Part shown: positions 1 to 63,327 of the stretch, one piece after another
Layout: every line of letters begins with the position of its first letter
Position numbering within the stretch: the first letter of the stretch is position 1
Assembly: GCA_016936575.1 (NCBI GenBank)
Contig: JAFGXQ010000045.1
Coordinates: forward strand, 70,664 to 134,663
Direction of reading: 5' to 3'
DNA from: Deltaproteobacteria bacterium
Lineage (GTDB): Bacteria > Myxococcota_A > Polyangia > JAAYKL01
Length of the DNA: 64,000 bases
Program-made: the position numbers and the translations under genes
Notes under the pieces: generated by a model
The model's input: the letters and a program-made list of their open reading frames with translations, nothing else
The model's database searches: none
Told to the model about the DNA's origin: nothing

Positions 1-1835
1 GATTTTATGGTTTCTTCATCGGCGGGGTGTTCTTCTTTGTACATCTTAAGCGGCATTTTTCCGGTAATCCAGGCCGGATTCATCGGGTATGCCGAAGGTC
101 GGAATACCGCGGAATACAAATGCCACACCACTATGGCCAGTAACGCCAACCAGGCTTCGTAATAATGGATGATTAGCAATACATCGAGCAATCCCTTCGG
201 GAACATGCTCGCGGCGACATTATCTAACATCAGAAAGAAACCGGTCATCGACATAATCGCCGTGCCCCATACCAGGGCCCAGTACTCCGCCTTTTCCACA
301 TAGCTGAAGCGCCCGAACCGCGGATGTTCGCCTTTGCCGGTCACATTGTATTTGACCATCTGCAGCGCCTGAGTGACATCCATCCAGCGAGGCAGCATCC
401 CCTTCATGAAGGAACGGCCTTCCGCCGTGAACAAATAGCCCACATGAACAATGACAGTGAACACAAACACCATCGCCGAACCCCGATGAATCAATCCGCG
501 CATGGGCGCGCCGCCTTCCCATCCGAACAGAATATCCTCCCACCAGCTTCCCGAAAAGCGCAGCGCGAATCCGGTAACGCACAGCACGGTAAACGACAAC
601 ATCAGCAGAGAATGTTGCAGCACTGCCCAGCGGCTCATACGAACCACCTGATGTTTGGCATTGAAATGGTCTGCCAGCAGTTTTCGCAAATCGATGACGA
701 TATACACAATCATCGAACCGATCACCGCGAATATCAATGCGAAGTATATATTTTTCACCAGGTTGGCAATGGGTGTCCGTCCCTCACCGGGAGCCCCGTG
801 CACCGTGGTTTGCGCCATGGCTTCGTGAATATTATTATGACATTTTGAACATGTCTTTTTCAGATTGCTCGGATGAATAGAACTTTCCGGATCACTTTGA
901 GGTAAAATATCGTGATAGCCGTGGCACGACGCGCAATTGGCCACGGTAAGATCCCCCGCCTTGCTTTTCAACCCATGATAGGTGTCCACAAAACTTCTGA
1001 GCCGACCGGTGGGAATATTGAATTTTTCATTCAGCCGCGCGGATTCATGACACGGAGAACAGGTGGCTTCCGCCAATCGGGCGGCGTTCACAGGAGAGCG
1101 GTTGTCGTCGGGCGACAGAATTCCGTGCTCCCCATGACAATCGGTGCAAATCGGCGTATCGGTTTCTCCCCGTGCGGTCAGTTTGCCGTGAATTCCTTTC
1201 CAGTAGGCTTTTGCTTCCTTTTTATGGCATTTTCCGCAGGTATCGGGAATATTGAAGTGATTGATTGACGATGCCGAATCGCCGGGCGACAAAATTCGAT
1301 GTGCGGAATTTCCGGCGGAGTGGCAATCGTTGCATGCGGCAGCCTCGGGTTTCTTACCGTCTTTGGTGGCATGCCCGTGAACACTTTTCAGATATGTTTC
1401 CACCGCATCTGAAAACCAGAGATTATGCTTCTTAATCAACTTCGAATTCTGATGGCATTTCCCGCAGGTGACTGTCATATTCTTGGGGTGAACCTTCGAT
1501 TCGGGATCTGTATGCGGCAAAATTCCGTGTGTGCCGTGGCAATCTTTACACTTGGGTACATCGGCGTCGCCCACTTTACCACGCCCGTGCTCGGTATATG
1601 TCTCGACAGCGTCGTCATGGCAATCTCCGCACGCTACCGCCGCCATCTTCTCGGGATGTTCTCCCTCTTCAAGCACCGCTTCCGTATGACAATCGGTACA
1701 ATCCATGTCCTTATGGATGGAATGGGAATGCGCCTGTTCAATGGACTTCCCGTTGTCGTGGCATTTCAAACATGTCTCATCTGCCGCCGCGTTAAAAGAG
1801 TATAACAACAAAGCGAAAAAGAGATACTTTCTCAT
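1..1835 (-). CDS. Multihaem c-type cytochrome (11 CXXCH motifs) fused to a HydC/FdnI-type (Ni_hydr_CYTB/cytochrome b561-like) membrane dihaem b domain. Architecture is CbcL-like. The C-terminus runs off the window start.
   Basis: Manual minus-strand translation from the ATG at ~1835 gives MRKYLFFALLLYSFNAAADE (signal peptide) followed by 11 CXXCH motifs (CLKCH, CTDCH, CGDCH, CKDCH, CGKCH, CNDCH, CGKCH, CTDCH, CSPCH, CASCH, CSKCH). A hydrophobic domain follows with RMSRWAVLQHSLLMLSFTVLCVTGF (R..R..HW..L..TG-like) and further His-containing TM helices. The ORF track misses it because it has no stop within the window. Confidence 0.8.
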   Translation of the reverse strand, partial: MRKYLFFALLLYSFNAAADETCLKCHDNGKSIEQAHSHSIHKDMDCTDCHTEAVLEEGEHPEKMAAVACGDCHDDAVETYTEHGRGKVGDADVPKCKDCHGTHGILPHTDPESKVHPKNMTVTCGKCHQNSKLIKKHNLWFSDAVETYLKSVHGHATKDGKKPEAAACNDCHSAGNSAHRILSPGDSASSINHFNIPDTCGKCHKKEAKAYWKGIHGKLTARGETDTPICTDCHGEHGILSPDDNRSPVNAARLAEATCSPCHESARLNEKFNIPTGRLRSFVDTYHGLKSKAGDLTVANCASCHGYHDILPQSDPESSIHPSNLKKTCSKCHNNIHEAMAQTTVHGAPGEGRTPIANLVKNIYFALIFAVIGSMIVYIVIDLRKLLADHFNAKHQVVRMSRWAVLQHSLLMLSFTVLCVTGFALRFSGSWWEDILFGWEGGAPMRGLIHRGSAMVFVFTVIVHVGYLFTAEGRSFMKGMLPRWMDVTQALQMVKYNVTGKGEHPRFGRFSYVEKAEYWALVWGTAIMSMTGFFLMLDNVAASMFPKGLLDVLLIIHYYEAWLALLAIVVWHLYSAVFRPSAYPMNPAWITGKMPLKMYKEEHPADEETIK

Positions 1836-1963
1836 TATGCCTAATTCCTTTAGCTGTATTTTTGTACAAGACCGCTGCCGATTATTGTACGGCAAAAACT
1901 GATTTATGCAAACGGGATATGGAATACCAACTTCGACGAAGACAGCGCCAGGTTGCGTAAATG

Positions 1964-3193
1964 TTATCTGGCGCTTTTCAATTTGGAAAGAACGGGATTG
2001 GCGTAAATATCCAGCAACAGTTCACGCTGTTCTTCAGCTACCTGCGACAACCGACGCTCCATCTCGGATTTCGTTTCGACATGCCTATCCAGGACGAACA
2101 CCTCTTCATCTTTTCCTACCGGAACATCAGGAACCGTTCCGTATCGCATCTCGTACGCTACCAGATTACTCGGATGAAGCACATAATTTCGCCATATCTG
2201 CTGGTCAACGGCGTCTGCCACCTGCTCCGGGGTTTCGAACTCCCCTGCTACTACTTCACCAAAATGCACATGGACCGCCCCCTTCCTGCCGGTAATCCCC
2301 TGGCCGATACTCTTCAAGTCCTCGTGCTCTTCTTTCTCGTACACGCCGCCGTCCGCTTTGTGACTCAACTCAATCACTTTGGCAACGTCGCAGGGGTCCC
2401 ATTCATAAGAAATCGAAATCGGCACCAACTGAAGCGAGGAAATGAACCCGGACAGCGTTTCAGTTTTGCGGTCCCGACTCATCGACAACATTTTCATGAT
2501 AGCGGGTTCTGTTTTATCGAGACTGTCTTTCGCTCTGCCTTCCCGCTGGGCTATCCAGATAGACTCTCTTTCCTCCAGCAGTGAAAACCGAATATACTCG
2601 GATAGCTTTTTATACGCAGCCAACATCTGACGCCCGATGGCTGACCGATTCACAATGAAGCTCTTATTCAGACGCATCAAATCCGATGCGAACGGCTTCG
2701 AAAGCAGGTTGTCTCCGATGGCAATCCGAACAGTCTCGTGATCATTGTGATACAACGCATAGCTGACAAACGCCGGGTCCAAAGCAATATCCCGATGATT
2801 ACTCATAAACAGATATGCATTCCCCTGCTTCAGGTCATCGATTCCGCCGACCGAAAAATCACTGGTCGTCGACTCTATCATGCGGTCCATATATTTCTTA
2901 ACAATCTGCTGAAAGGACTTTACATCCGCAACGTTGCACAGTTCCTGCCTCAACGCCGCCTTCACAACCGTACGCGCCAGCGGCGGAATAATGGGTTGCA
3001 TCCTGGGCAGCTTCATTTTGGCCACAGTATCGAGCAGCTCTTTATCTGCGATTAGTCGCGCAAGAACGCCATTTACTTCAGTGTCCGCATATGGCCGAAT
3101 ATCATCATAATTTTCCAACATTCGCTCCTTCGTTTTCGCCGAACCCAAACGAAGGCGAGACCATACCGAAATGATCCCTACGTGTCGCCACAA
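1964..3193 (-). CDS. PlsC/GPAT-family glycerolipid acyltransferase
   Basis: Motif I-like NHRDIALD, motif II-like SFIVNRS, motif III-like REGRAK and motif IV-like LVPISISY, in the canonical order. Complete 409-aa ORF. Confidence 0.55.
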   Translation of the reverse strand: MWRHVGIISVWSRLRLGSAKTKERMLENYDDIRPYADTEVNGVLARLIADKELLDTVAKMKLPRMQPIIPPLARTVVKAALRQELCNVADVKSFQQIVKKYMDRMIESTTSDFSVGGIDDLKQGNAYLFMSNHRDIALDPAFVSYALYHNDHETVRIAIGDNLLSKPFASDLMRLNKSFIVNRSAIGRQMLAAYKKLSEYIRFSLLEERESIWIAQREGRAKDSLDKTEPAIMKMLSMSRDRKTETLSGFISSLQLVPISISYEWDPCDVAKVIELSHKADGGVYEKEEHEDLKSIGQGITGRKGAVHVHFGEVVAGEFETPEQVADAVDQQIWRNYVLHPSNLVAYEMRYGTVPDVPVGKDEEVFVLDRHVETKSEMERRLSQVAEEQRELLLDIYANPVLSKLKSAR

Positions 3194-5937: not shown

Positions 5938-6939
5938 ATGAAACCAGGGGTTCCGATATCAATTTTCTGTCTATTGCTTTGCACACAGCCGACACTGGCT
6001 GATGAACCGGACGATGAGGCATCTGCGGCATTCCAGGAGGGCATTCGGTTGTACGAAGCGGGGGAATACCCTCAATCTGCAACCGCGTTTCGCCGTGCCC
6101 ATTCGCTGAAGGCGAACTGGCGCCTTCTGTACAATATCGGTCAAGCGGAAGCCGCATCGAAGCGACCGGGAATTGCGCTGCAATCGTTTGAAGAATATCT
6201 GACAACGGGCGGCGACGATATACCCGAACAACGACGCGCCGAGGTAATGGAAGAAATTCGACGTTTGCGTGAGCTGGTAGGCGCACTTGAAATTGAAGCG
6301 CCCGAAAGCGCCGTAGTGTATATCGATGATGTCGAACGAGGCACAACGCCGTTGCCCGGATCTATCATGATTTCTGCCGGTGCAACGCACCGGGTTCGCG
6401 TTGTGCATAGCAATAAAGCAATTCTGGATAGGACTGTTCGGCTAAGTGGACGACAAACAAAAACATTACATGTGTCAGAAGATGGGCCAGAAGACGACGC
6501 CGCATCTTCGACAGAAGCCCCCTCCCCTTCTTCTGATACAGAAGCCACAGTGAATGAAGCTGCCGAACCAACCCCTGCGAATCCGTTGCCGAAATCAAAG
6601 CTGAAACCTATCGGAATCGCCATTCTGTCCACCGGCAGCGTGGTGCTTGCAGCGGGTATTGTCACTGGAGGGATAGCGCTTTCGAAGGAAAAGGAACTGA
6701 ACAGCATGTGCAACGGTTCTATCTGCTACGACACAAAGGCTGCCGACACGCTCAATAGCCGCGACAGGTTGGCAGTCGCGACCGATATTCTGATTCCCGT
6801 CGGCGCCGTGCTCGCTACGATAGGAGGTATTTTACTCATTGCGAACGCGAAAAAACAGTCTGAACGGGCTGTGCGAATTCAACCTGCGACCGGTAGCCAT
6901 TTCGCCGGTGTGGCACTGCACGGAGAGTTTTCGCTATGA
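5938..6939 (+). CDS. Signal-peptide protein with TPR-like N-terminus, a PEGA domain and a C-terminal membrane anchor
   Basis: Signal peptide MKPGVPISIFCLLLCTQPTLADE. PEGA-like segment AVVYIDDVERGTTPLPGSIMISAGATHRVRVV. Ser/Pro-rich linker, then a TM helix (IGIAILSTGSVVLAAGIVTGGIAL). Confidence 0.5.
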   Translation: MKPGVPISIFCLLLCTQPTLADEPDDEASAAFQEGIRLYEAGEYPQSATAFRRAHSLKANWRLLYNIGQAEAASKRPGIALQSFEEYLTTGGDDIPEQRRAEVMEEIRRLRELVGALEIEAPESAVVYIDDVERGTTPLPGSIMISAGATHRVRVVHSNKAILDRTVRLSGRQTKTLHVSEDGPEDDAASSTEAPSPSSDTEATVNEAAEPTPANPLPKSKLKPIGIAILSTGSVVLAAGIVTGGIALSKEKELNSMCNGSICYDTKAADTLNSRDRLAVATDILIPVGAVLATIGGILLIANAKKQSERAVRIQPATGSHFAGVALHGEFSL

Positions 6940-9038: not shown

Positions 9039-11987
9039 CTACTGCGAAATGCGTTCCATGGAGCCTACGGGGCCAAGTCCGTCGTTGCCGCCCACAATGT
9101 AGATATGCGAGTTCACGCGAACCGTTCCGTAATAGGATCGAGGAACCACAAAGCCGCCATTAGAGGACATGTAGTTGGTCAGAAATTCGGTACTCGCATC
9201 CGTAATCGGCTCTTCGGTCACGATCTCAAATCGTGTACTGAGAGAACCGAGGGGAGACGGTTCCATATCGACTCCGTCCCCATCAACGCCTTCCTGCTCT
9301 GAATCCACTCCTGGGAACGCGTACAAATACTGATCCACCACGACAGAGCCGCCGGCATAGGTAGTGCGACCATTCGACAAATCCGTATCCTGAACGGTCC
9401 ATTCCCCCAAAGCCGACATATTTACATCGAGAATCGCGGCTTCGATAGTCATCAACCCGCTATTGGGCGCAGGTGACGTGAATGATTCGTCTCCCGCCAC
9501 TGCGAATAGCAGTATCTGGGTGTCTGCCGCCGCCGGCAACGGATCGGGGTTCAGCGGACTGGTTCCCTGAGGCTGCGAAGACGATAGTCCCAAAAACGCC
9601 CGCGGCGTTTGCATTTCTTCAGTGATTGCAGTCGCGTCGCCGAGCGCGCCGTCCGCAAGAACCGAAATGAACTCCACACTGCCGAGATAGTTGTCTGTGC
9701 CGCCGTCTCCCCTCCCCCCTGCAATAATCATATAGCTGCCGGCGTCAGTGACCACAACGGTTCCCGCCGCGCCCTCTCGTGGGGTGGTCAGCGTTGCATC
9801 AAGTGTTTGCCAACGTGACAATGAACCAATTGGCAATGCAGCAACGCCATCGAGGGGAAAGCTCAGTTCATCAACTGCCAACGACCCATCGTCGGTCCAA
9901 CCGGTGTCGGCAACCCCCTCAGCGATCAGGAAGGTGTCTTCCGTCCCGACAATCGCTTCCGCTACCACATTGGTCCGATACACATTATACGTGGCTCCCG
10001 GCACCGGATCCCAAGTAAGCACCACGGTTCCCTGGGTTGCGTCAGTGGTCACCGACGTGCGATATCCAGCGATGGACTCCACTCCATTCACCACACTGGC
10101 GATACGGTACACCCAGATTCCGGCAGCCAGAGTGCCGCCATCAAAGACACTGGCGGAAACGAATCCGGGGGACGGAGCCGTTTCACCGGCATCCTGGTAG
10201 CAAATGAGATCGTCGGAGCCGCTCTCGACAGATGCAATCCAACGCGTGGTTCCCGGCCGCCCGTCTCCGGCGATAGAACGATATACATTGTAACTTGTCG
10301 CTTCCGGCAACCCGTCAAAACAAATTTCCACCGTTCCAGAGGTATTCAAAATCTGTACTTCATTGGAAGCCAACCCTTCTCCGAACGCACCAACGGCAGA
10401 AATCCTATAGTACCAGGTGCCATAAGGTAAATCTCCATCGCTTACCCGCGTCGGAGCAGAAACATCAACCATCGTATCGGATCCCAAAATCGTCGCTGTT
10501 TCAATGCTGTCCAATGCAACGTTATCGGCATCGAGGACGATGCTGGTATCCGTCGCGTTTCCCCCAAACGCATACAATCGATCTTTCAAACGCAGCAATA
10601 CGTGGCCGCTTCGAGGAGTATTCAATGCATTCTCCACTCGCGGTGTATCGGAATCCTGCCATTGCAGCAATGTTCGCCATTCCCCTACTTCGCCGTAAAT
10701 ATTCACCGCGGCGACTTCTGCGTTGCCAAGCACCTCATTGTCTGCATTGAGTCCACCGACAACATACATATGGGTACCGCTCCGCATGTCAAAACCGAAT
10801 GCGGTCCCGTGTCGCTCCCGTGCAGTCGCCAGCGTAGAATCCGGGGCATCGAAATTGCCTGTGAAATGACCGTCTGTGGGGCTCTTTGCTTCAAACGCAT
10901 AAAACGTATCGGATTGCCCATCGGGGTTCACCACTTTCACTGGATACAGCCCCAGCTCCACCGTGTCGGCGGGTATTGAAGTTACCAGCTCGGTGTCTGT
11001 GGCAGTGGTCACCTCCAGGGCGATTTCACCATCCGCGGTCAATAGAGAAACCGTCGCATCCACACTGAAGTACTGCCCCAATACCGTAAACGGTGTACAA
11101 TCTTCATTAAAAGGATGCTGCACAGGATCGATCGCTGAAATCTGGGGTGGAGATACATCCGTCACTTCAAATATGCCGGGTTCTTCGGTATCGGACACCA
11201 ACCATTGCCCGGCCAGCTCATCAGGATTACTTACCCACACATAATAAGCGCCGACCGAAATCTGCGCCGACTCGGATGGAATCGATGCAATGAGGGTGTT
11301 TTCATCGATGAAATTCACTTCAGACGCCAAATACGACACATCGGGGTTCTCCACACTGACCAACGTCACCCACGGGGTATTGACAAAATGTTCGCCGCTG
11401 ATCTGAATCGTTTTATCCGATAAGACATCATCATCCGTTGTGCCCACCCAGGCCAGTGCAGGCTCCACATTGGTTACTATCGGCGGCGGCAGTATTGAAA
11501 TGGAAAGCACCCCATCAAGCGTCGCAAAGGTACCGTCCGCCAACGTAACGGTCACATCATACAGTCCTTGAACTGCGGTCACTTCGGAACCGAAAAGTAC
11601 TGTTGCGGCTTCGCCCGTCTCTATCGATGCCGCACCCAGCGCCACAATCTGATCTCCGAGAGATATCGAAACGGTCATTCCCTCTTCAAATCCCGTACCC
11701 TGTATTGTTAACAACTGCTCCGTCCCCACGCTGATCGCACCCGGAAGAACACTGACCACCGTCAGTAACGCACTGGTATCGCCATTGATACTGTCTGAAT
11801 CCGTATCATCACTGCTATCGGTGCCTTCTGATTCCGTCGCCACTGAGGTGTCATTGATACTGGTATCGGGAGTGGTATCAGAACCGGTATCCCCATCATC
11901 TGATGATTTTTTATCATCTTCGGAGCATCCGAAAACCCACATCATCGAAACAATCAAGACCGCGATTTGTACACCTGATTTTATCAT
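9039..11987 (-). CDS. Large secreted lipoprotein with Kelch-type beta-propeller repeats and IPT/TIG-like Ig domains
   Basis: Kelch-like h-Y-V-x-GG motifs (HMYVVGGLNADN, YMIIAGGRGDGG, HIYIVGGNDG). IPT/TIG-like segments (LTIQGTGFEEGMTVSISLGD...). Acidic S/T/D tract after a lipobox (VFGCSEDD). Start moved to the internal Met (MIKSGVQIAVLIVSMMWVFGC); the ORF may start at 12095. Confidence 0.5.
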   Translation of the reverse strand: MIKSGVQIAVLIVSMMWVFGCSEDDKKSSDDGDTGSDTTPDTSINDTSVATESEGTDSSDDTDSDSINGDTSALLTVVSVLPGAISVGTEQLLTIQGTGFEEGMTVSISLGDQIVALGAASIETGEAATVLFGSEVTAVQGLYDVTVTLADGTFATLDGVLSISILPPPIVTNVEPALAWVGTTDDDVLSDKTIQISGEHFVNTPWVTLVSVENPDVSYLASEVNFIDENTLIASIPSESAQISVGAYYVWVSNPDELAGQWLVSDTEEPGIFEVTDVSPPQISAIDPVQHPFNEDCTPFTVLGQYFSVDATVSLLTADGEIALEVTTATDTELVTSIPADTVELGLYPVKVVNPDGQSDTFYAFEAKSPTDGHFTGNFDAPDSTLATARERHGTAFGFDMRSGTHMYVVGGLNADNEVLGNAEVAAVNIYGEVGEWRTLLQWQDSDTPRVENALNTPRSGHVLLRLKDRLYAFGGNATDTSIVLDADNVALDSIETATILGSDTMVDVSAPTRVSDGDLPYGTWYYRISAVGAFGEGLASNEVQILNTSGTVEICFDGLPEATSYNVYRSIAGDGRPGTTRWIASVESGSDDLICYQDAGETAPSPGFVSASVFDGGTLAAGIWVYRIASVVNGVESIAGYRTSVTTDATQGTVVLTWDPVPGATYNVYRTNVVAEAIVGTEDTFLIAEGVADTGWTDDGSLAVDELSFPLDGVAALPIGSLSRWQTLDATLTTPREGAAGTVVVTDAGSYMIIAGGRGDGGTDNYLGSVEFISVLADGALGDATAITEEMQTPRAFLGLSSSQPQGTSPLNPDPLPAAADTQILLFAVAGDESFTSPAPNSGLMTIEAAILDVNMSALGEWTVQDTDLSNGRTTYAGGSVVVDQYLYAFPGVDSEQEGVDGDGVDMEPSPLGSLSTRFEIVTEEPITDASTEFLTNYMSSNGGFVVPRSYYGTVRVNSHIYIVGGNDGLGPVGSMERISQ

Positions 11988-12174
11988 GAAAGTCACCTCC
12001 ATTGCATCTGTGCTGCACACTTGCAGCAACACCGTCAATACAGCCAGAACCGTGCCACTGACGCGGAGATGCGATATGCTCGATAGAATCATCATTTATT
12101 TTATTGAGACTGAATTTTTTCGACACAATTGTCGAGCCGCTCGATATTTTGGTCGAGCATCGGAATGATTGAAA

Positions 12175-13188
12175 CTATTCTGCGACAGTTACCGGCTGGC
12201 AGCAACCGCTCACGCAATAAAAGCCGGCATCACATGGAGATACATCTGAAACAGTGCACGGTTCAATTCCCGTCGGACATTGATCATCCGGCGTACCATC
12301 GGAATCGTCGCCGTCACCGTAACAGTCCGCAGGCAATTCCGGCTTACCAATGCATATTTCGCAATAGCCGCACTCGTTCAGGCAATTCGCTACGGGCGTG
12401 CATCTCGGGCATTTGCTTTCATCCAAAATATCGGCAAACGTGCACGTTCCAATATTGTCGGCGTCTTTCGCGCCAATCCAAACATAGGCATCGTCACCGT
12501 CGGTCCCCAACCCTTCGAGTTCCGGGAAGGTGCAACACCCGAAGCAGTCACAACCGTTCGGCGTGAACGGTACACAGACATCGGTGCACAATTGGGTTTG
12601 TTCATCCGGGCAAAACTGGGGATTTCCAATTAACGTTTCATTATATTCGCAAACAGCGCCTTCCGGCTCCAGGGGATCACATTCGTGACTCCACCAACAA
12701 TCATCGCTGCCGGTGCCCATGCCGTTTCCATAGTCAAAATAGCAGTCCACATGGCACGTTGATCCGGTTACGCCGCCCACATCCGAGATCAATGCAGGCC
12801 CTTCAGTATTGTCGCACGGCCCCAGGCATTCCGGATCGCGCCAATCGGTCATCCCGTCACTGTCATTATCTTTGCAATCGCCACATTCCAGCAGCCGTCC
12901 GTCACATTGGGTTTCGTAGCACACAAACTGCTTGCCATCGCCGTCCACCAGCAGCTCTCCCCCCTCACCCACCACTACCGTTGAATCCGTACCGTCCTGC
13001 CATCCTTCATCCGTCCCCTGAACCGACGTGTCGTCCTCATCCATACCTGTTCCGGTGGCAGAATCCTGGCGGTGGGTGGTGTCGGTGTCGAGCACTGCAT
13101 TCGCCGAACTGACGTCATCACCGCACCCTAAATTGCTTACAGCCCATACCCCGCACAAAAACAAGCACACTCGTCGTACAGTGAACAT
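12175..13188 (-). CDS. Cysteine-rich secreted lipoprotein with Asp-rich putative Ca-binding motifs
   Basis: Signal plus lipobox (AVSNLGCGDD), about 40 Cys in 337 aa, and DNDSDGMTD / DGDDSDGTPDD motifs resembling thrombospondin type-3-like Ca-binding loops. Confidence 0.5.
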   Translation of the reverse strand: MFTVRRVCLFLCGVWAVSNLGCGDDVSSANAVLDTDTTHRQDSATGTGMDEDDTSVQGTDEGWQDGTDSTVVVGEGGELLVDGDGKQFVCYETQCDGRLLECGDCKDNDSDGMTDWRDPECLGPCDNTEGPALISDVGGVTGSTCHVDCYFDYGNGMGTGSDDCWWSHECDPLEPEGAVCEYNETLIGNPQFCPDEQTQLCTDVCVPFTPNGCDCFGCCTFPELEGLGTDGDDAYVWIGAKDADNIGTCTFADILDESKCPRCTPVANCLNECGYCEICIGKPELPADCYGDGDDSDGTPDDQCPTGIEPCTVSDVSPCDAGFYCVSGCCQPVTVAE

Positions 13189-13415
13189 ACTGACCTCCTC
13201 TGTTTAATTTTGAACTCATTGACAAATTTGCAGCAAATCCGATGCCACAACGGTTTGCATAAAATTTTGAGTGCACGACAGCTGATTCGTCCAGACAGCA
13301 TCATACAATTCTTAATTACAAAAAAACACGGCACCGGTGAAAGGTCGACAAAAACGTCGAATTTCCATTGTGCTCTTCGACCATTTGGACGACAATTACA
13401 CTTGTTTTGCCGGTG

Positions 13416-13904
13416 TCAATGAGCATCTCCCAGATAGATATCATCGAACGTTTCGAATGCGCAAACCGCTTCGACGCTCCCATGCACAAATGTGACCTTG
13501 TCGGCAAATTTTGAGAAACTGGGCTCCACCAGTTCCAAAACATCGTAGTCAGGCTCCACCACCGTAATATGAACCACCCCGGGCTTGCGAAGCAAACGGT
13601 ACAAGAAGCCGCCCAGACCCACATTCGTCACCAGCACGTGGCCGCGAGCGCGTCGAATAAACGGCAAATGAAGGCGCAGTGTCACCGGGTCATTCGTGTC
13701 AATCTGCCGGCCGCCGCGATACAATGCCTGGTAAACATAGTCGCGGTCGTATCTGTCGCGCACCTCGCAAACGCCGCTCACCTCTTCGGGAATAACCACA
13801 ATACCGTGCGCATAGTCGCCGAAATGGGCACCGAACCTAGGGGCATCGGCGATAAATGGAACGGCTTCTTTTCCGATGATATTATTTTCCTGAGCATTGA
13901 ACAT
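13416..13904 (-). CDS. Short spermidine-synthase-like (class I SAM-fold) protein, possibly truncated
   Basis: HVLVTNVGLGGFLYRLLRKPGVVHITVVEPDYDV resembles the SpeE VLIIGGGDGG...V..VEID motif. The ORF ends shortly after FDDIYLGDAH (cf. FDVII-D-S-DP); about 120 aa expected in full-length SpeE are missing. Confidence 0.3.
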   Translation of the reverse strand: MFNAQENNIIGKEAVPFIADAPRFGAHFGDYAHGIVVIPEEVSGVCEVRDRYDRDYVYQALYRGGRQIDTNDPVTLRLHLPFIRRARGHVLVTNVGLGGFLYRLLRKPGVVHITVVEPDYDVLELVEPSFSKFADKVTFVHGSVEAVCAFETFDDIYLGDAH

Positions 13905-14125
13905 GGGTCACCTCTCTGTTGTTTCCTGTTGTTTCCATCCCATTATCCCCCCTTGATAAGACATTTTTTGTCGCATACTACGCTACGACTCTTTTTTTCA
14001 GTTGAGCCGTTATCGGGTCTATGCGCCACATATCTAAAAAGACACACTTGTTCTGTTTTGCGACAACCTGCGCATCGGTCGAATATTGCGACACTTGTGC
14101 GCATTGAGAGAGGTACGGTACAAAG

Positions 14126-15478
14126 ATGAACTTACGATTTTTTCTTTCAATACATTGGCTGGGAGTCCTTCTTGTTGTCTGCGGTTGTTCCTCCGACAAC
14201 AACACCGATGACACCGGAGACACCACGCCCGACACCGCCGACTCGGAAACCGAATCCGATACAGAGCGGAGTACTGAAACCGCAGAACCAACCAGCGATG
14301 ATTCCACCGACACCGACACAACAATCACCGAAATCACGGTCCGCCGTATTGCCGAAGAAAATGAAACCGAAGAGGACGTGACCGCAGACTCCATTGTATG
14401 GTTCGCGGTAATGGACAACGATGAAACCCGCGCGATTCCCTGGACCCCAGACAGCGAATTGGCAATGCGCGTGTCAGTCCAAGGTGACCGGTACGGCATA
14501 GCCTATCAATGCGCCAACAACGCAGGACTGACCGCAATATACACAACCGTTCAGGAACTCACCCAGATCGATATGATTTGTCCGGTTTCTCGTGCAATGG
14601 CGGGATGCGATGCAGATGTAGAAATCGTATGGGACGGATTTGAAGGGAATGGTGCGCTGATCACCACGTGGGGACACGAATACATTGAACACCCTGAGAC
14701 ATCGGGCTATCTGGCCCCCAACAGCGACCGAAGTGAATTCTTCGTAGCCGATACCCAGGACGGCATCCCTATGCATCTGTACTCCAGACCGAGCAATGAC
14801 TTCAGTTGCTCCGATACTGTTGTGATTGACCTTGCGGCAGATGCGAACCTGTACACATCGCACCCGCTCTCTTACGGCGCGCTTTCCCATAATACCGAAC
14901 TGATACCTGATGAAACCCGACATGTTTACTGCACTTCAACCATGCCGGACGGCGCCTACGCGTACACGTGCAAGGTTCCCTCAAACAGCACTCAGTTTTC
15001 GGCAGCATCAGGAGCTGCAATAAATCAAATTGCTATCAGCGGCTGGTGGGATGACGGACACCGACGCTCATATATACAATTGGAAAATCCTCCACCCGCT
15101 GCGGTGGAATTGTTCCTGCTGACCCCCATCGAATTTACAGAAATACAACACGCCGGCAGGACACCGAGTACAGGCATCATCATTTCACAGGACCCTTACG
15201 CACTCGCGTATATCTATACATTGAGATATGAAGACGATGCAGAAATTCACATCATCGCGACGCGAAGCTGGGTCGATGACCAACTGCCGCTTCTCACCCC
15301 CGACTTGACCGGAACATCCGTATCACTCTCAACACTGGGTCAGCTCGAAGCTTCGCAACTCGTCGCCACTTGGAGCAACCTGGGAACCATGCGTGCCATC
15401 AATAAAGTCGCGGGGCATTTCCCCACTGAAAGCAATGGGGAATCTGCAGCAGAAATCACGGCAATTGAGTTTTATTAA
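14126..15478 (+). CDS. Lipoprotein with an acidic T/D/S-rich linker (hypothetical)
   Basis: Lipobox LLVVCGCSSD, then about 70 aa DNNTDDTGDTTPDTADSETESDTE..., then a 350-aa domain with no recognisable motif. Confidence 0.5.
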   Translation: MNLRFFLSIHWLGVLLVVCGCSSDNNTDDTGDTTPDTADSETESDTERSTETAEPTSDDSTDTDTTITEITVRRIAEENETEEDVTADSIVWFAVMDNDETRAIPWTPDSELAMRVSVQGDRYGIAYQCANNAGLTAIYTTVQELTQIDMICPVSRAMAGCDADVEIVWDGFEGNGALITTWGHEYIEHPETSGYLAPNSDRSEFFVADTQDGIPMHLYSRPSNDFSCSDTVVIDLAADANLYTSHPLSYGALSHNTELIPDETRHVYCTSTMPDGAYAYTCKVPSNSTQFSAASGAAINQIAISGWWDDGHRRSYIQLENPPPAAVELFLLTPIEFTEIQHAGRTPSTGIIISQDPYALAYIYTLRYEDDAEIHIIATRSWVDDQLPLLTPDLTGTSVSLSTLGQLEASQLVATWSNLGTMRAINKVAGHFPTESNGESAAEITAIEFY

Positions 15479-15511
15479 GATGCTACTTGCTATACAGAAC
15501 CCGGCTATGTT

Positions 15512-16108
15512 CTATGACGGGTCTTTGCATTGTTCAAGAATGTCTGACTTCAAACCGGGGCAACAGGTATTCGGACCGAAGTAGGAACGCCAGATTAAAT
15601 CAGCGAAGCCTTTGCCCTTGGTGATTTGTCCCATTCGCGCGCCGTTCTGCTTCAGAAGTGTTCCCTGACCGGGAATGTAAATAATCTCCACATAACTGCC
15701 CTTATTTAAATCCTTGGTGAAATACGACAAGAATACGTTAATTTTTTTCTGCAGCTCAGTGGTGTCTTTACCCTGCGGTAAATTTTTCGTGAACGTGTCT
15801 TTCAAGTTGTCAATCAACCGCTTTTTGGGAATGGTTCGCTTCATTGACAGGATCAACGCCTTTACCTCTGACTTGTAGATCACCGACCGCATGCTGCACT
15901 CGCCGCTCTCAGAGTAGGCGCTGAGGCTGTAAATATCCACGAATAGAAATTCGCGGATCGCCGTACCCAGCAATTTGAGAGATTTTCCGGCGACGGCTTT
16001 ATTTTTCGATACTGCTCCCACCGCTGGAGACGGCGGAAACACAGTAACCATAACCAACACTGCCAGCGCGACAATGTACCCTTTTCTTGTGCACCATATT
16101 GCTTTCAT
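15512..16108 (-). CDS. Chalcone-isomerase-like fold protein (bacterial CHI-like/fatty-acid-binding type), secreted
   Basis: Signal peptide. LKLLGTAIREFLFVDIYSLSAY resembles the conserved core of bacterial chalcone-isomerase-like (Chalcone_3) proteins. Start placed at the internal MKAIWC. Confidence 0.35.
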   Translation of the reverse strand: MKAIWCTRKGYIVALAVLVMVTVFPPSPAVGAVSKNKAVAGKSLKLLGTAIREFLFVDIYSLSAYSESGECSMRSVIYKSEVKALILSMKRTIPKKRLIDNLKDTFTKNLPQGKDTTELQKKINVFLSYFTKDLNKGSYVEIIYIPGQGTLLKQNGARMGQITKGKGFADLIWRSYFGPNTCCPGLKSDILEQCKDPS

Positions 16109-16141
16109 GCGGGTTCCTTTATCGTTCAGCAAATCCGCGAC

Positions 16142-17308
16142 CTAATCTTCGCAGATTTTCAGTTGAGAAATAAACCACGGCGCGGGGATAGAACAGTCAC
16201 CGCACATCAATGCCACAATCCAAATCCCTTCGTCGGTAATACCGGTGAACGCGTTGCCGTTGTCATCTGTTAATTCAGAAAGGGTCGCATAGGTACCCGC
16301 ATCGATGGTTTTTCGCCAGATTTCATCTGCCATGTTTTCGAGATTCAGAAAATCGGATTCCAGTGCCGAAATCGTCGTATCGGTGTAGTGTGCAACCATA
16401 ATCCCGGCAATCATCGTGGGTGCGAACTCGCGCCCCATCGCGTTGTTCGTCATGCTGCCGGTCCAATCCAAATACACATCGGCGGTGCCGGGCGGCAAAA
16501 TAATCGGCTCCAGGGAACTGAGATCAGCTTCATAATCCAGTTGCACCGAATCATTGTGAATGGTTACCGTTGAATTGTTCGCATCTTCGCGCACATTGAA
16601 CAACGCGAGCATACGCGCATTTTGACCGAGAATGATGCCCGAAGAAAGCATCACCGAATACGAAAAATCTTCAGGTGGAACATTGACAGGATCCAGCAGA
16701 CTCAGCATGGAGGCTTCATCGAGCGCGGATCCCCCGGGAGAAACCAAATCCAGATAATTGAATGTCGTTGTGCTCTGTTCAGTAAAATACACAGCCGGCG
16801 GATTCGCCAAATCCTGCATTGTCCAATCATCACTATTCAACTTTTCAACCAACTCCTCTTCGTTTGCGGACCAAATGGTCACCAGTGCCATCTGTATATC
16901 GCCCTCGCCATCAAGCGGCTGCCCCAGCATGTCCTGAGTCAGATCATCCCATTGGAACGTAATATCGGTGGAGGGAGTTACCGACGTGGCTTCAATTGTC
17001 ATTTCATTGGTGAACGTGTAATTCTGTGCATCCACCAGTGCATACGACACCACGCCATCTGTGACAGGCACAACATCGCACGAAGGTGGCGGTTCGTCTG
17101 CGTCTGTATCGCTGTCGCTGTCACTGTCTCCGTCGCTATCGACATCCGAGTCGCTGTCAGTATCACCGTCACCATCGGTATCTGTATCGCTGTCACTGTC
17201 ACCATCTGTGCCGCTCTGCTCAGTGTCTGAATTACCGCCGCACGACAACATCGCACCAACGCAGAATATCAACACAAAAACAAACAACCATATTACTGTT
17301 TTCGACAT
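16142..17308 (-). CDS. Lipoprotein with a (D-S/T-D-G)n linker (hypothetical)
   Basis: Lipobox AMLSCGGNSD, then [41 protein letters not shown], then a 300-aa domain. Confidence 0.5.
   Translation of the reverse strand: MSKTVIWLFVFVLIFCVGAMLSCGGNSDTEQSGTDGDSDSDTDTDGDGDTDSDSDVDSDGDSDSDSDTDADEPPPSCDVVPVTDGVVSYALVDAQNYTFTNEMTIEATSVTPSTDITFQWDDLTQDMLGQPLDGEGDIQMALVTIWSANEEELVEKLNSDDWTMQDLANPPAVYFTEQSTTTFNYLDLVSPGGSALDEASMLSLLDPVNVPPEDFSYSVMLSSGIILGQNARMLALFNVREDANNSTVTIHNDSVQLDYEADLSSLEPIILPPGTADVYLDWTGSMTNNAMGREFAPTMIAGIMVAHYTDTTISALESDFLNLENMADEIWRKTIDAGTYATLSELTDDNGNAFTGITDEGIWIVALMCGDCSIPAPWFISQLKICED
17095..17215. repeat. In-frame tandem repeat encoding a (D-S/T-D-G)n linker (minus-strand gene)
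   Basis: Periodic gtcgctgtc / gtatcgctgtcactgtc units inside 16142..17308. Confidence 0.65.
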
Positions 17309-17347: not shown

Positions 17348-18766
17348 CTACTGCTCCAGATCCACTGGATGGCCATATAATGTAGGCCGCCAAACCACAT
17401 ATCCGAACGCGGCTTGGCCCAAATCAATTGAACGCACAAGCTGTTCGTCAGCAGCCACCTCGTGCATCAATGCTTTATTACTATACGAAACAAGTGTGTT
17501 GCCATTCGGCAAACGCTGCACATCCCCCAAGGTAGGCGTTCCGAGACCTTCCACACGATACCGCCATATCTCCCGCAACCCGCCGGTATCGCTTGAAAAC
17601 TCGTATTCCAGTGCCTCACTGGTCAGTGTCACATCTGAAAATGAACCACCATTATTGAAAATGAGAATACTGTTGTTGAGCAAATGGTGACCATGCTGAT
17701 ATTTCCACAACCCGTCATTCTGCGTCACCCACGCAACGTCTCCACTTTTATCGAATGCGACAATTTCGCCGTGCTCGTAGTCAGATACCGTAAATAACTG
17801 TTCGGCCATGGAGTAGCGTAACGCATTGCCGTGACACCCGGTTCCCCACGTATCGGCGGTATCGTATATCAAACCGATGTTGCCGTTGGTATCCAACGAC
17901 ATCACACGCGCGCAAACCGCTGAGTTTCCAAATCCGCCTTCCGGAGTGTATTCCAACCAGGCGAACGTGTTGTCATCTACAGGGGTCAAGTCATGCGCGG
18001 CACCCGTCAGCGACGTGAACTGTTTTACTTCCTGGCCATCCATTGACACCAGTTCCACAGCACCGGCGTTTCCCTGATTATTACTCGATACTACCGCCAT
18101 CCATTTGCCGTCGTAGCTCATTCGAGCCCTGGTGCTGTCGCTAAGCGCTGTTGCAGCGTACCACCAAACGATATCGCCGTCGTTGTCTATAATGAATGCC
18201 ATAGGGTTCTGCGAAAAAGAGGCCGCAGTATACGACGCCAAAACGAAAAATCCGGGGGCGACCGACGCTGATTGCGCTACAATGATATCGGCTCGCTGAA
18301 TCACGTTCGTTACCGGTTCAGTCGTGATCACCACATCATGACTGCGATACGTTGTTCCATCAATTACCGCATTCACGCGAACATGGTAGTCAGAAGACCC
18401 CTTCATACCCAGAAGCAATGTTCTGAAATATTCCGCGGTTAACTCCACTGGTGCGGTCATTCCATACTCGCTATCCAACCCGAAGTCGATGGTCGCCGCA
18501 TCGATTTCGTTATCAACATTCGTTGACCATTCCACAATGCCCACTGTTCCGATGGCGTCACTGAGGTTCACAGACACCTCAAACGTGATGTCTCTATCTC
18601 CCGCATCAGTATTGGCATCCGTATTGTCAACTTCAGTTCCGCGGTCGCTATCGTCGGAATCGTCCGAGCGCATACCATCGCCGGCAGCTCTTTCACTGGA
18701 GCAGCTCATCCAGAATACTGCTCCACAAAGTATCGCTAGAAATGTTATGGTTATAGACGCGCGCAT
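17348..18766 (-). CDS. Arylsulfotransferase (ASST)-like beta-propeller lipoprotein with an N-terminal Ig/FN3-like domain
   Basis: Lipobox WMSCSSE and an acidic linker. Propeller region with QHGHHLLNNSILIFNNG and RLPNGNTLVSYS motifs (HH...NGN pattern of the ASST/Arylsulfotran_2 type). Paralog of the adjacent gene. Confidence 0.45.
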   Translation of the reverse strand: MRASITITFLAILCGAVFWMSCSSERAAGDGMRSDDSDDSDRGTEVDNTDANTDAGDRDITFEVSVNLSDAIGTVGIVEWSTNVDNEIDAATIDFGLDSEYGMTAPVELTAEYFRTLLLGMKGSSDYHVRVNAVIDGTTYRSHDVVITTEPVTNVIQRADIIVAQSASVAPGFFVLASYTAASFSQNPMAFIIDNDGDIVWWYAATALSDSTRARMSYDGKWMAVVSSNNQGNAGAVELVSMDGQEVKQFTSLTGAAHDLTPVDDNTFAWLEYTPEGGFGNSAVCARVMSLDTNGNIGLIYDTADTWGTGCHGNALRYSMAEQLFTVSDYEHGEIVAFDKSGDVAWVTQNDGLWKYQHGHHLLNNSILIFNNGGSFSDVTLTSEALEYEFSSDTGGLREIWRYRVEGLGTPTLGDVQRLPNGNTLVSYSNKALMHEVAADEQLVRSIDLGQAAFGYVVWRPTLYGHPVDLEQ

Positions 18767-18787
18767 TTAAAATTCGTTTTGCCTCTA

Positions 18788-21484: not shown

Positions 21485-21519
21485 TCTCCTTTTTATAAAA
21501 GCACTTTAAAACAAGTGGT

Positions 21520-23841: not shown

Positions 23842-23854
23842 TTTATTCTCTTCC

Positions 23855-25402: not shown

Positions 25403-25403
25403 G

Positions 25404-26873: not shown

Positions 26874-26922
26874 CTGAAACTGTCGATGCGGCCGATAGAA
26901 CACAGTCACCCCTTTGCCTCTC

Positions 26923-53150: not shown

Positions 53151-53154
53151 CAAG

Positions 53155-62276: not shown

Positions 62277-62282
62277 TCCTCT

Positions 62283-63203: not shown

Positions 63204-63327
63204 CTTTTCTCCTGTCTTTATATATACCGACAGCTGTGGAACTGACGGCATCGAACAGTGGAATACTGGTACTCATATACTTTAATAAAACAGAATGCAA
63301 TTGAATGTTTTTTTTTTCAGGGTCTGC

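What the first reader, a model, noticed from the sequence alone, without database searches (positions are those of the whole stretch)
1..1835. CbcL-like 11-haem cytochrome c fused to a HydC/FdnI-type dihaem cytochrome b, missed by the ORF track
The gene runs off the left edge on the minus strand, so the provided track lists only spurious plus-strand ORFs here (324..848, 912..1268, 1425..1805). Translation shows a signal peptide, 11 CXXCH motifs and then a cytochrome b561/Ni_hydr_CYTB-type 4-helix domain. This c+b fusion is the architecture of Geobacter CbcL, an inner-membrane quinol oxidase feeding periplasmic or extracellular electron transfer, but with 11 rather than 9 haems. A PlsC-family acyltransferase gene lies directly upstream.
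Basis: partly seen in the sequence, partly recalled or inferred. Interest (0 to 1): 0.55.

Follow-up and report, generated by a model that had tools for sequence, protein, structure and literature searches.

The report
CbcL-like 11-haem membrane cytochrome gene
The gene is real and encodes an inner-membrane protein that joins an 11-haem periplasmic cytochrome c to a two-haem cytochrome b, a known design for passing electrons between the membrane quinone pool and the periplasm, so it is a sound but fairly ordinary find.

Summary
Window 1-1835, minus strand, is one open frame of 611 codons. It has a Sec signal peptide, 11 CXXCH motifs, a linker helix and a four-helix FdnI/HydC-type cytochrome b domain. 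All four haem-b histidines are present. No stop or frameshift separates the two parts. Only 5 codons and the stop codon lie beyond the window edge; the public protein is 616 aa.

The CbcL comparison also holds. The protein aligns colinearly with a Desulfuromonas CbcL orthologue at 27% identity (E 2e-55). CbcL haems 1-9 match haems 3-11 here.

It is not a CbcL orthologue. It belongs to a very large, well conserved 11-haem clade with five helices and no C-terminal sixth helix. That clade is found in Zixibacteria, Ignavibacteria, Acidobacteriota, Marinimicrobia and other phyla. A 2018 survey already described the CbcL/MtrH/MtoC family as spanning 15 phyla and 3-23 haems, and it lists other 11-haem members.

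In other phyla the gene often sits among multihaem cytochrome clusters. Here and in its closest relative it stands alone.

The likely function is to link the menaquinone pool with periplasmic cytochromes. The direction of electron flow is not settled. I rate it a new member of a known kind, of modest interest.

The parts
1..1835 (-). Coding sequence of the bc-type fusion cytochrome: codons 1-611 of 616. The last 5 codons and the stop lie beyond the left edge of the window.
   Evidence: Open frame. 100% identical to the 616-aa public protein P0001. The gene was called on two independent assemblies.
1782..1835 (-). Signal peptide, residues 1-18 (MRK, then a hydrophobic core, then AAA|DE).
   Evidence: Read directly from the sequence. 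No signal-peptide predictor was available.
786..1781 (-). Periplasmic 11-haem cytochrome c domain, residues 19-350. It has 11 CXXCH motifs plus 12 invariant and 1 nearly invariant further histidines, and no invariant methionine.
   Evidence: Motif count. Pfam Cytochrome_C7, Cytochrom_c3_2, Paired_CXXCH_1 and MtrC/MtrF II-IV domain, all above their cutoffs. Invariant columns in 35 homologues.
696..773 (-). Linker transmembrane helix (about residues 355-380). It carries the chain from the periplasm to the cytoplasmic start of the b domain.
   Evidence: Hydropathy. A long helix at 355-391 in the model.
99..641 (-). FdnI/HydC-type four-helix dihaem cytochrome b domain, residues 399-579. Haem ligands are H408, H450, H557 and H572. 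The conserved cytoplasmic-loop motif is FGRFSYVEKAEYWALVWG (residues 507-524).
   Evidence: PF01292 at 48.9 bits against a cutoff of 30.1. Family profile against FdnI 1kqf_C, E 1.2e-6, with the four histidines aligned. Foldseek best match 1kqf_C.
1..98 (-). Hydrophilic cytoplasmic C-terminal tail (residues 580-611 of 616). There is no sixth transmembrane helix.
   Evidence: Sequence. 51 of 54 clade members lack a C-terminal helix, whereas 20 of 22 CbcL/MtoC-type proteins have one.
1845..1851 (-). Purine-rich AAAGGAA, a likely ribosome-binding site 10-16 nt upstream of the ATG at 1835.
   Evidence: Read from the sequence printed. Inference only.
1884..1912 (-). Sigma-70-like promoter match (TTTGCA, 17 nt spacer, TACAAT) in the 128-bp gap between the acyltransferase gene and the cytochrome gene.
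   Evidence: Consensus scan on L002 9924-9952, converted to window coordinates. The number of such sites in the region is not above the shuffled expectation, so this is weak.
1964..3118 (-). Upstream neighbour: an acyltransferase-family gene (PF01553), same strand. It has no evident functional link to the cytochrome.
   Evidence: The order FapA, acyltransferase, cytochrome is kept in the 80%-identical relative.

Best explanation
The gene encodes an inner-membrane bc-type cytochrome of the CbcL/MtrH/MtoC kind. After Sec export and haem attachment, an 11-haem chain sits in the periplasm; all 11 haems are probably bis-histidine ligated. One helix returns the chain to the cytoplasm. A four-helix FdnI-type domain then holds two b haems stacked across the membrane.

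By analogy with FdnI, the quinone site should lie at the cytoplasmic face beside the inner b haem, at the strongly conserved FGRFSYVEKAEYW loop. The protein therefore wires the menaquinone pool to periplasmic electron carriers with no FeS, flavin or molybdopterin subunits.

My preferred direction, as for Geobacter CbcL, is menaquinol oxidation with electrons passed outward to periplasmic cytochromes. In that direction protons are released on the cytoplasmic side, so the step conserves no energy but can reach low-potential acceptors.

Shown here: the domains, the haem ligands, homology to CbcL and the topology logic. Inferred: the position of the quinone site, the direction of flow and the redox partners.
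For: - The fusion is intact, with 11 CXXCH motifs and five helices.
- PF01292 scores above its cutoff.
- The four FdnI haem-ligand histidines are aligned and invariant.
- The best PDB structural match is FdnI.
- The protein aligns colinearly with a Desulfuromonas CbcL orthologue (27% identity, E 2e-55); CbcL haems 1-9 match haems 3-11 here.
- It is 29-31% identical over its full length to 11-, 17- and 19-haem CbcL/MtoC-type proteins.
- The c domain has 12 invariant extra histidines and no invariant methionine, which fits pure electron transfer.
- 38 of 65 relatives have other multihaem cytochrome genes within 6 kb. These include DmsE/GSU2203-like decahaems, a GSU2204-family protein (521 bits, cutoff 350) and a second bc fusion.
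- For Geobacter CbcL, the literature reports that it is required for low-potential acceptors, that its c domain has a midpoint of -194 mV and reduces PpcA, and that quinol oxidation is argued to occur on the cytoplasmic side (PMC9129911; bioRxiv 10.1101/2022.08.31.506072).
Against: - No partner cytochrome, porin or terminal reductase gene lies in the 64-kb window or in the 10 kb to its left. The closest relative is equally solitary. Nothing local therefore shows an extracellular electron-transfer role in this organism.
- Identity to CbcL is only 27%, and the sixth helix of CbcL is absent.
- Relatives in Fe(II) oxidisers (MtoC) are thought to run in the opposite direction, and no sequence feature is known that tells the directions apart (PMC6295460).
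- The c domain of the model is only moderately confident (mean pLDDT 70; residues 253-301 below 50) and contains no haems.
Confidence: 0.6

Rival explanations
1. Same protein, opposite direction. It takes electrons from the periplasm (reduced periplasmic cytochromes fed by hydrogenase or formate dehydrogenase, or electrons taken up from Fe(II), humics or a syntrophic partner). It then reduces menaquinone at the cytoplasmic face, taking up cytoplasmic protons. This is the direction in which FdnI works, and it would build proton-motive force as half of a redox loop.
For: The b domain is FdnI-like in fold and ligands. FdnI itself works in this direction (established knowledge of formate dehydrogenase-N). 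The homologous MtoC proteins occur in Fe(II) oxidisers (PMC6295460). In some relatives the neighbours are HmcB/HmcC-like and HmcA-like modules, typical of periplasm-to-membrane electron entry in sulfate reducers. The source MAG is labelled Deltaproteobacteria.
Against: No hydrogenase, formate dehydrogenase or uptake-conduit gene lies near the gene here. The only genetically tested relative, CbcL, is a quinol oxidase. Several relatives sit beside proteins with ImcH-like architecture, and Zhong and Shi found ImcH homologues only in Fe(III) reducers (PMC6295460).
Confidence: 0.28
2. The protein is the membrane anchor and electron wire of a specific periplasmic enzyme encoded elsewhere in the genome, such as a reductase or dehydrogenase that docks on the haem domain. 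It would not be a general feeder of periplasmic or extracellular electron transfer.
For: FdnI/HydC-type b subunits normally anchor a dedicated enzyme. The same type of b domain also occurs in 220-290-aa proteins, which may be stand-alone b subunits or gene fragments. The gene is solitary here, so its partner must be encoded elsewhere.
Against: No catalytic-subunit gene recurs next to the clade in 65 loci; the recurrent neighbours are other cytochromes. Eleven haems are far more than a docking wire would need.
Confidence: 0.09
3. The open frame is a decaying or non-functional remnant, or an assembly chimera that joins a cytochrome c gene to a cytochrome b gene.
For: None found. The only pointer is that the gene has no local partners.
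Against: Two independent assemblies carry the identical gene. An 80%-identical full-length orthologue comes from another sample. Hundreds of species-level genomes encode a relative, and in the 54-65 fetched loci examined all but one copy keeps 11 haem motifs. All haem ligands are intact.
Confidence: 0.02

Closest known systems
Geobacter sulfurreducens CbcL (GSU0274) and its Desulfuromonadales orthologues
   Same: Single polypeptide: signal peptide, N-terminal periplasmic multihaem c domain, linker helix, C-terminal FdnI/HydC-type dihaem b domain. Homologous over both domains (27% identity, E 2e-55 against the D. thiophila orthologue). The nine CbcL haem motifs align one-to-one with motifs 3-11 here. 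Overall length is nearly the same (616 against 613-619 aa).
   Different: Two additional N-terminal haems. Five rather than six helices, with no C-terminal helix. Shorter cytoplasmic loops. The b-domain signature is FGRFSYVEKAEYW rather than RWTYWEKFDF. Function and operating potential are untested.
CbcL/MtrH/MtoC family as surveyed by Zhong and Shi 2018 (PMC6295460), including its 11-haem members (e.g. Opitutus terrae Oter_2603) and 19-haem members (Caldithrix, Ignavibacteria)
   Same: Same architecture. The survey reports 15 phyla, 3-23 CXXCH motifs, 416-1034 aa, and frequent neighbouring cytochrome and MtrAB/MtoAB genes. The haem-motif spacing here (24, 23, 27, 28, 44, 32, 30, 29, 42, 28) closely follows that of the listed 11-haem proteins (e.g. 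26, 20, 30, 28, 44, 28, 30, 25, 30, 28).
   Different: All listed 11-haem entries have six predicted helices, including one at the C-terminus. None shows this clade's spacing of 32, 30, 29, 42, 28. The Ignavibacteria entries in the survey are only the 19-haem type, although the 11-haem gene lies next to that type in Ignavibacteria loci. In the 81 fetched loci, b-domain identity between the two classes has a median of 28%, against 55% within this clade.
E. coli formate dehydrogenase-N gamma subunit FdnI (PDB 1KQF chain C)
   Same: Four-helix dihaem b fold. The four histidine ligands lie on helices 1, 2 and 4. Both termini are cytoplasmic. It is the best sequence-profile and structural match in the PDB.
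   Different: FdnI is a separate subunit fed by an FeS subunit and a molybdoenzyme. Here the b domain is fused, through an extra helix, to a multihaem cytochrome c. Identity is about 18-20%.
ANME archaeal Mco candidates: a VhtC-type cytochrome b gene followed by a 7- or 11-haem cytochrome c gene (PMC9012536)
   Same: The same functional idea: a hydrogenase-type cytochrome b paired with a 7- to 11-haem cytochrome instead of a hydrogenase, proposed to act as a membrane carrier:cytochrome c oxidoreductase.
   Different: The ANME genes are separate, archaeal and use methanophenazine. No sequence comparison was made here.

Membership tests
CbcL/MtrH/MtoC bc-type fusion cytochromes (broad family) | One polypeptide with an N-terminal multihaem c domain (CXXCH motifs) followed by a C-terminal membrane domain. 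| tested here: met
   11 CXXCH motifs at residues 22-333, then five helices, with no stop in the frame.
CbcL/MtrH/MtoC bc-type fusion cytochromes (broad family) | The membrane domain is a HydC/FdnI-type b cytochrome with conserved haem-ligand histidines. | tested here: met
   PF01292 at 48.9 bits against a cutoff of 30.1. H408, H450, H557 and H572 align to FdnI His18, 57, 155 and 169 and are invariant. Foldseek best match is 1kqf_C.
CbcL/MtrH/MtoC bc-type fusion cytochromes (broad family) | Detectable full-length sequence homology to bona fide members. | tested here: met
   E 2e-55 and 27% identity over 573 columns against the rebuilt D. thiophila CbcL. E 1e-89 to 3e-79 against 19-haem and truncated 11-haem CbcL/MtoC-type proteins. 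G. sulfurreducens CbcL itself could not be retrieved. The D. thiophila protein was accepted as an orthologue because its haem-motif positions are identical to the Desulfuromonas acetoxidans entry in Table S2 of PMC6295460.
CbcL/MtrH/MtoC bc-type fusion cytochromes (broad family) | Six transmembrane helices (stated for most members, with a few exceptions of four or five). | tested here: not met
   Five helices and a hydrophilic C-terminus. 51 of 54 clade members lack the C-terminal helix. The survey itself lists four- and five-helix exceptions, so this is a typical feature rather than a strictly defining one.
CbcL proper (orthologues of GSU0274) | Nine haem motifs at conserved positions, and at least about 57% identity among orthologues. 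| tested here: not met
   11 motifs and 27% identity. The identity range for orthologues comes from PMC6295460.
CbcL proper (orthologues of GSU0274) | Required for reduction of extracellular acceptors below about -0.1 V; acts as a menaquinol oxidase. | not testable with these tools
   This needs genetics and electrochemistry.
FdnI / formate dehydrogenase gamma subunit (TIGR01583) | Scores above the equivalog cutoff, and is encoded with FdnG/FdnH-type partners. | tested here: not met
   41.8 bits against a cutoff of 115.85. No FdnGH-type genes lie nearby. The names 'formate dehydrogenase gamma subunit' given by JGI to homologues are over-annotations.
MtrA/DmsE decahaem cytochromes (TIGR03508) | Scores above the subfamily cutoff. 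| tested here: not met
   55.5 bits against a cutoff of 192.2. This is only generic multihaem similarity.

The most novel reading that the evidence does not exclude
This protein represents a distinct and never characterised five-helix, 11-haem clade of bc-fusion cytochromes. Earlier CbcL/MtrH/MtoC surveys appear not to have listed it. It may be a principal link between the quinone pool and periplasmic cytochromes in many uncultivated sediment and ocean lineages (Zixibacteria, Ignavibacteria, Acidobacteriota, Marinimicrobia, Krumholzibacteria, Gemmatimonadota and others). In several of these lineages it is paired in tandem with a 17-19-haem six-helix paralogue. If so, it would be a useful marker of electron exchange with the environment in those groups, and its operating potential or direction may differ from that of CbcL.
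Probability: 0.4. Interest if true: 0.45.

Novelty: new member of a known kind. Interest (0 to 1): 0.3.

Why it matters
How electrons leave or enter the quinone pool is the least understood step of extracellular electron transfer outside Shewanella and Geobacter. This gene adds one more orphan example of the CbcL-type solution. On its own it does not change the picture.

The wider clade is more useful than this single gene:
- It is very abundant: more than 7,600 homologous 90%-identity clusters, and at least 585 species-level genomes matched.
- It is unusually well conserved across phyla (46-58% identity).
- It is fixed at 11 haems.
- As far as I could find, it has not been studied experimentally.

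That makes it a reasonable target for someone working on electron transfer in uncultivated FCB-group bacteria and Acidobacteriota.

Tried and rejected
1. Retrieving G. sulfurreducens CbcL. The machine-read alignment in the supplement of PMC9129911 is garbled. A database search with three fragments taken from it returned only C-terminal fragments of Geobacteraceae and Desulfuromonas CbcL. I then rebuilt a full CbcL orthologue from a frameshifted pair of gene calls in a D. thiophila genome. About 12 residues around the frameshift are unreliable.

3. Foldseek against the PDB found nothing significant for the 11-haem domain; only the b domain matched. Sequence hits of the c domain to MtrA (6r2q_A), GSU1996 (3ov0) and a 2026 'cytochrome c' entry (28pb_A) are short-range multihaem similarity and were not pursued.

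4. I considered a catalytic haem domain of the NrfA/HAO type. I rejected it because there is no CXXCK or other atypical motif, and there are enough invariant histidines for 11 bis-His haems.

5. I looked for partner genes across the whole window (CXXCH scan; Pfam on 38 ORFs) and beyond its left edge. None was found.

6. The small ORF downstream of the gene (117-123 aa) has no family match and is absent in the closest relative. It is probably not a partner.

7. The promoter and terminator scans gave nothing above the shuffled expectation.
Full report
**1. What is in the sequence**

The reverse strand of window 1-1835 translates into 611 codons without a stop, starting at the ATG at 1835. A purine-rich AAAGGAA lies 10-16 nt upstream of that ATG.

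The product has 11 CXXCH motifs, at residues 22, 46, 69, 96, 124, 168, 200, 230, 259, 301 and 329. There are no atypical haem motifs and only one further cysteine.

The N-terminus (MRK, hydrophobic core, AAA|DE) reads as a Sec signal peptide. Five hydrophobic helices follow the haem region, at about 355-380, 403-425, 445-467, 518-540 and 548-575.

The mechanical ORF tool does not list ORFs that run off an end of the window.

The full protein is public and 616 aa long, so the window lacks only five codons and the stop. It comes from contig JAFGTB010000154.1 of MAG GCA_016934495.1 ('Deltaproteobacteria bacterium') and is annotated generically as 'cytochrome b/b6 domain-containing protein'. A second, independent assembly carries the identical gene.

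**2. The two domains**

Pfam places Ni_hydr_CYTB (PF01292) at residues 399-579, at 48.9 bits against a cutoff of 30.1. Several multihaem families (c7, c3, paired CXXCH, MtrC/MtrF domain II/IV) cover the N-terminal part.

NCBIfam hits to FdnI, DmsE-type decahaems and NrfH are all far below their cutoffs, so the protein belongs to none of those named families.

A profile built from 35 homologues finds E. coli FdnI (1kqf_C) as its best PDB match, E 1.2e-6. The four FdnI haem ligands (His18, 57, 155, 169) align with H408, H450, H557 and H572. These four histidines are invariant in the 35 sequences.

An AlphaFold2 model was made (mean pLDDT 70; the b domain mostly 80-90). Its best Foldseek match in the PDB is again FdnI, with TM-score 0.77 normalised to FdnI and rmsd 3.5 Å.

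The c domain has 12 invariant and one nearly invariant non-motif histidines, and no invariant methionine. That is enough for bis-histidine ligation of all 11 haems, which argues for an electron wire rather than a catalytic haem site.

The topology makes sense. FdnI starts in the cytoplasm, so a periplasmic cytochrome domain needs one extra helix to connect to it, and that helix is present. One more invariant histidine, H464, sits in the second b-domain helix. Its role is unexplained.

**3. Relation to CbcL**

I could not obtain the G. sulfurreducens protein directly. Fragment hits led instead to a Desulfuromonas thiophila genome, where the cbcL gene is split by a frameshift into calls of 434 and 179 aa.

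The rejoined 613-aa protein has haem motifs at 32, 57, 81, 104, 128, 156, 184, 227 and 255. These positions are identical to the Desulfuromonas acetoxidans CbcL entry in Table S2 of Zhong and Shi. It also has a hydrophobic C-terminal sixth helix.

The window protein aligns with it colinearly from residue 69 to 602 (27% identity, E 2e-55). Each of the nine CbcL motifs aligns with motifs 3-11 here. The extra two haems are therefore an N-terminal extension.

The b-domain signature differs: FGRFSYVEKAEYWALVWG here, against RWTYWEKFDF(L/I)AVFWG in CbcL. The sixth helix is absent here.

**4. The family it belongs to**

A homology search returned more than 7,600 clusters. The best 120 are all 616-708 aa long, 53-59% identical (one is 80%), and carry the same domains.

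A scan of species-representative genomes with two conserved peptides found at least 585 encoding loci. The best 80 come from Zixibacteria, Ignavibacteria, Eisenbacteria, Latescibacterota, Fibrobacteraceae-labelled MAGs, Acidobacteriota (Thermoanaerobaculia, Holophagae, Aminicenantes, Polarisedimenticola), Gemmatimonadota, Marinimicrobia, Krumholzibacteria, Myxococcales, Phycisphaerae and Methylomirabilota. All but one (a single-cell genome) are MAGs.

Two classes of bc fusion separate cleanly in those loci:

| Feature | This clade | CbcL/MtoC-type class |
|---|---|---|
| Proteins sampled | 54 | 22 |
| Haem motifs | 11 in 53 of 54 | mostly 17-19 |
| C-terminal helix | absent in 51 of 54 | present in 20 of 22 |
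| Median b-domain identity within class | 55% | 47% |

The median b-domain identity between the two classes is 28%.

An exhaustive search with the b domain alone gave 255 representatives (50% clusters) at E ≤ 1e-30 and 1,175 at E ≤ 1e-10. Their lengths run from about 220 to 906 aa. The same b domain therefore also occurs with other haem counts, and perhaps alone, although some short hits may be gene fragments.

**5. What was already known**

Zhong and Shi (2018, PMC6295460) defined the CbcL/MtrH/MtoC family. They report 15 phyla, 416-1034 aa, 3-23 CXXCH motifs, mostly six helices, conserved b-haem histidines, and frequent linkage to cytochrome and MtrAB/MtoAB genes.

Their Table S2 lists about ten 11-haem proteins, including Opitutus terrae Oter_2603 and entries from Dadabacteria, Planctomycetes and Verrucomicrobia. 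Their motif spacing closely parallels that of the window protein, but all have a C-terminal helix.

By positions alone, none of their entries matches the five-helix clade. Their Ignavibacteria entries are only of the 19-haem type, which in my loci is the immediate neighbour of the 11-haem gene.

So the architecture, including 11 haems, is known. This particular subclade seems not to have been catalogued or studied. I found no paper describing it, within the limits of the open-access library searched.

**6. Genomic context**

In this window there is no other ORF of 100 aa or more with even one CXXCH motif. Pfam annotation of 38 further ORFs shows nothing respiratory near the gene.

The 10 kb beyond the left edge holds a small unannotated ORF, a convergent peptidase M3 gene, a PAS histidine kinase gene and a tRNA synthetase gene.

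The 80%-identical relative from another sample keeps the order FapA, acyltransferase, cytochrome, convergent peptidase M3, and is equally solitary.

Elsewhere the picture differs. 38 of 65 loci have further multihaem cytochrome genes within 6 kb, and at least 13 have a second bc fusion with 9-19 haem motifs, usually 17-19, often directly adjacent. Recurrent neighbours are:
- a DmsE/GSU2203-like decahaem (below the family cutoffs);
- a GSU2204-family protein (521 bits against a cutoff of 350);
- HmcB/HmcC-like FeS and membrane subunits with a 13-haem protein;
- a three-helix, six-haem protein with an NrfH-like core, whose architecture recalls ImcH (not tested against ImcH).

This is guilt by association for a role in periplasmic or extracellular electron transfer. 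It applies to the clade as a whole, not specifically to this organism.

**7. Mechanism**

Shown here:
- a Sec-exported 11-haem domain;
- a linker helix;
- an FdnI-type dihaem b domain with all its ligands;
- homology to CbcL.

Inferred:
- The quinone site lies at the cytoplasmic face beside the inner b haem, as in FdnI. From my memory of the FdnI structure, the inhibitor HQNO binds near His169 and the loop Asn110-Gly112-Gln113. That loop aligns with the clade's most conserved stretch, FGRFSYVEKAEYW.
- If the enzyme oxidises menaquinol there, protons are released to the cytoplasm and electrons cross outward. The step then conserves no energy and is assisted by the membrane potential. This is how CbcL's low-yield, low-potential role is explained (bioRxiv 10.1101/2022.08.31.506072).
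- If it runs the other way, it is an FdnI-like energy-conserving quinone reductase.

I favour export (about 0.6 against 0.28), on the CbcL precedent and the clade's neighbours. Nothing in this window decides the question.

**8. Verdict**

The ORF-track 'miss' is an edge artefact.

The protein is a divergent member of a known kind, already present in public databases under a generic name. It is not a new architecture, so interest is modest (0.3).

The residual novelty lies in the uncharacterised, very widespread five-helix 11-haem clade and its frequent tandem pairing with a 17-19-haem paralogue.

Noticed in passing
L007 7986-12829; likewise L008, L010, L015, L016, L021, L025, L028 and L062: In Ignavibacteria, Zixibacteria and other MAGs, the 11-haem five-helix gene is immediately followed (gaps of 4-130 bp) by a 19-haem, 860-960-aa, six-helix bc fusion of the CbcL/MtoC type. 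This is a conserved tandem of two different quinone-linked multihaem cytochromes.
   Followed up: partly
L004 3043-12243; L006, L012 and L017 are similar: Zixibacteria clusters read: TetR-like regulator, 11-haem bc fusion, three-helix six-haem NrfH-core protein (ImcH-like architecture), DmsE/GSU2203-like decahaem, a roughly 520-aa protein with no family match (sitting where a porin would be expected), and a 5-12-haem protein with an N-terminal cysteine that looks like a lipoprotein signal (one member inspected). This looks like a complete inner-to-outer-membrane electron conduit island. The porin and ImcH identities were not tested.
   Followed up: partly
L013 4444-7136; also L005, L053 and L075: A GSU2204-family CXXCH-containing protein (521 bits, cutoff 350), paired with a GSU2203-like decahaem, lies next to the 11-haem bc gene in several phyla. 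The function of this pair appears to be unstudied.
   Followed up: no
L083 4697-6540 (Desulfuromonas thiophila genome contig ctg38524c): The cbcL orthologue is split into gene calls of 434 and 179 aa by a frameshift near position 5960-6000. This is either an assembly error or a genuine pseudogene. About 4 kb downstream on the same locus there is a separate cytochrome c plus Ni_hydr_CYTB gene pair (10392-12073), an unfused version of the same idea.
   Followed up: no
window residue H464 of the protein (nt 444-446, minus strand): A fifth histidine in the b domain (second helix, 14 residues after the haem ligand H450) is invariant in the clade. It aligns with a histidine in the 19-haem and 11-haem CbcL/MtoC-type proteins, but not with one in FdnI, and not cleanly with one in CbcL. 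Its role is unknown.
   Followed up: partly
search result (e.g. P0152 274 aa, P0161 272 aa, P0165 906 aa): The b domain of this clade also occurs, at 40-55% identity, in proteins of about 220-290 aa (possibly stand-alone b subunits, or fragments) and in proteins of 760-906 aa (more haems). This suggests modular gain and loss of haem domains.
   Followed up: no
window 17348-20560 and 30024-31103: Two tandem arylsulfotransferase-family (ASST) genes, plus a sulfotransferase-family gene about 10 kb away, all on the minus strand.
   Followed up: no
window 20654-27020: A cluster of LolA-like/DUF1329, MMPL-family transporter, DUF1302 and FadL/TodX-type outer-membrane protein genes. This is a recurring set for moving hydrophobic compounds across the envelope.
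   Followed up: no
window 52395-54135: Adjacent genes for a 3-oxo-5-alpha-steroid 4-dehydrogenase-family membrane protein and a 3-beta-hydroxysteroid dehydrogenase/epimerase-family protein. This is an unusual pair for a bacterium labelled as a deltaproteobacterium.
   Followed up: no
window 58946-63251: A GltD-like FAD/FeS oxidoreductase, a NIR_SIR sulfite/nitrite reductase and a PLP-dependent cysteine synthase-like gene lie in a row. This is probably assimilatory sulfite reduction leading to cysteine.
   Followed up: no
window 9039-12095: A gene for a 1018-aa protein with TIG/IPT and Kelch repeats. Several neighbouring ORFs (12175-17308) have no family match.
   Followed up: no
L002 11980-12333 (just beyond the left edge of the window): A 117-123-aa ORF is called downstream of the cytochrome gene in both assemblies. 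It has no Pfam match and is absent from the 80%-identical relative's locus, where the peptidase M3 gene ends 21 bp after the cytochrome gene. It is probably spurious or lineage-specific.
   Followed up: yes
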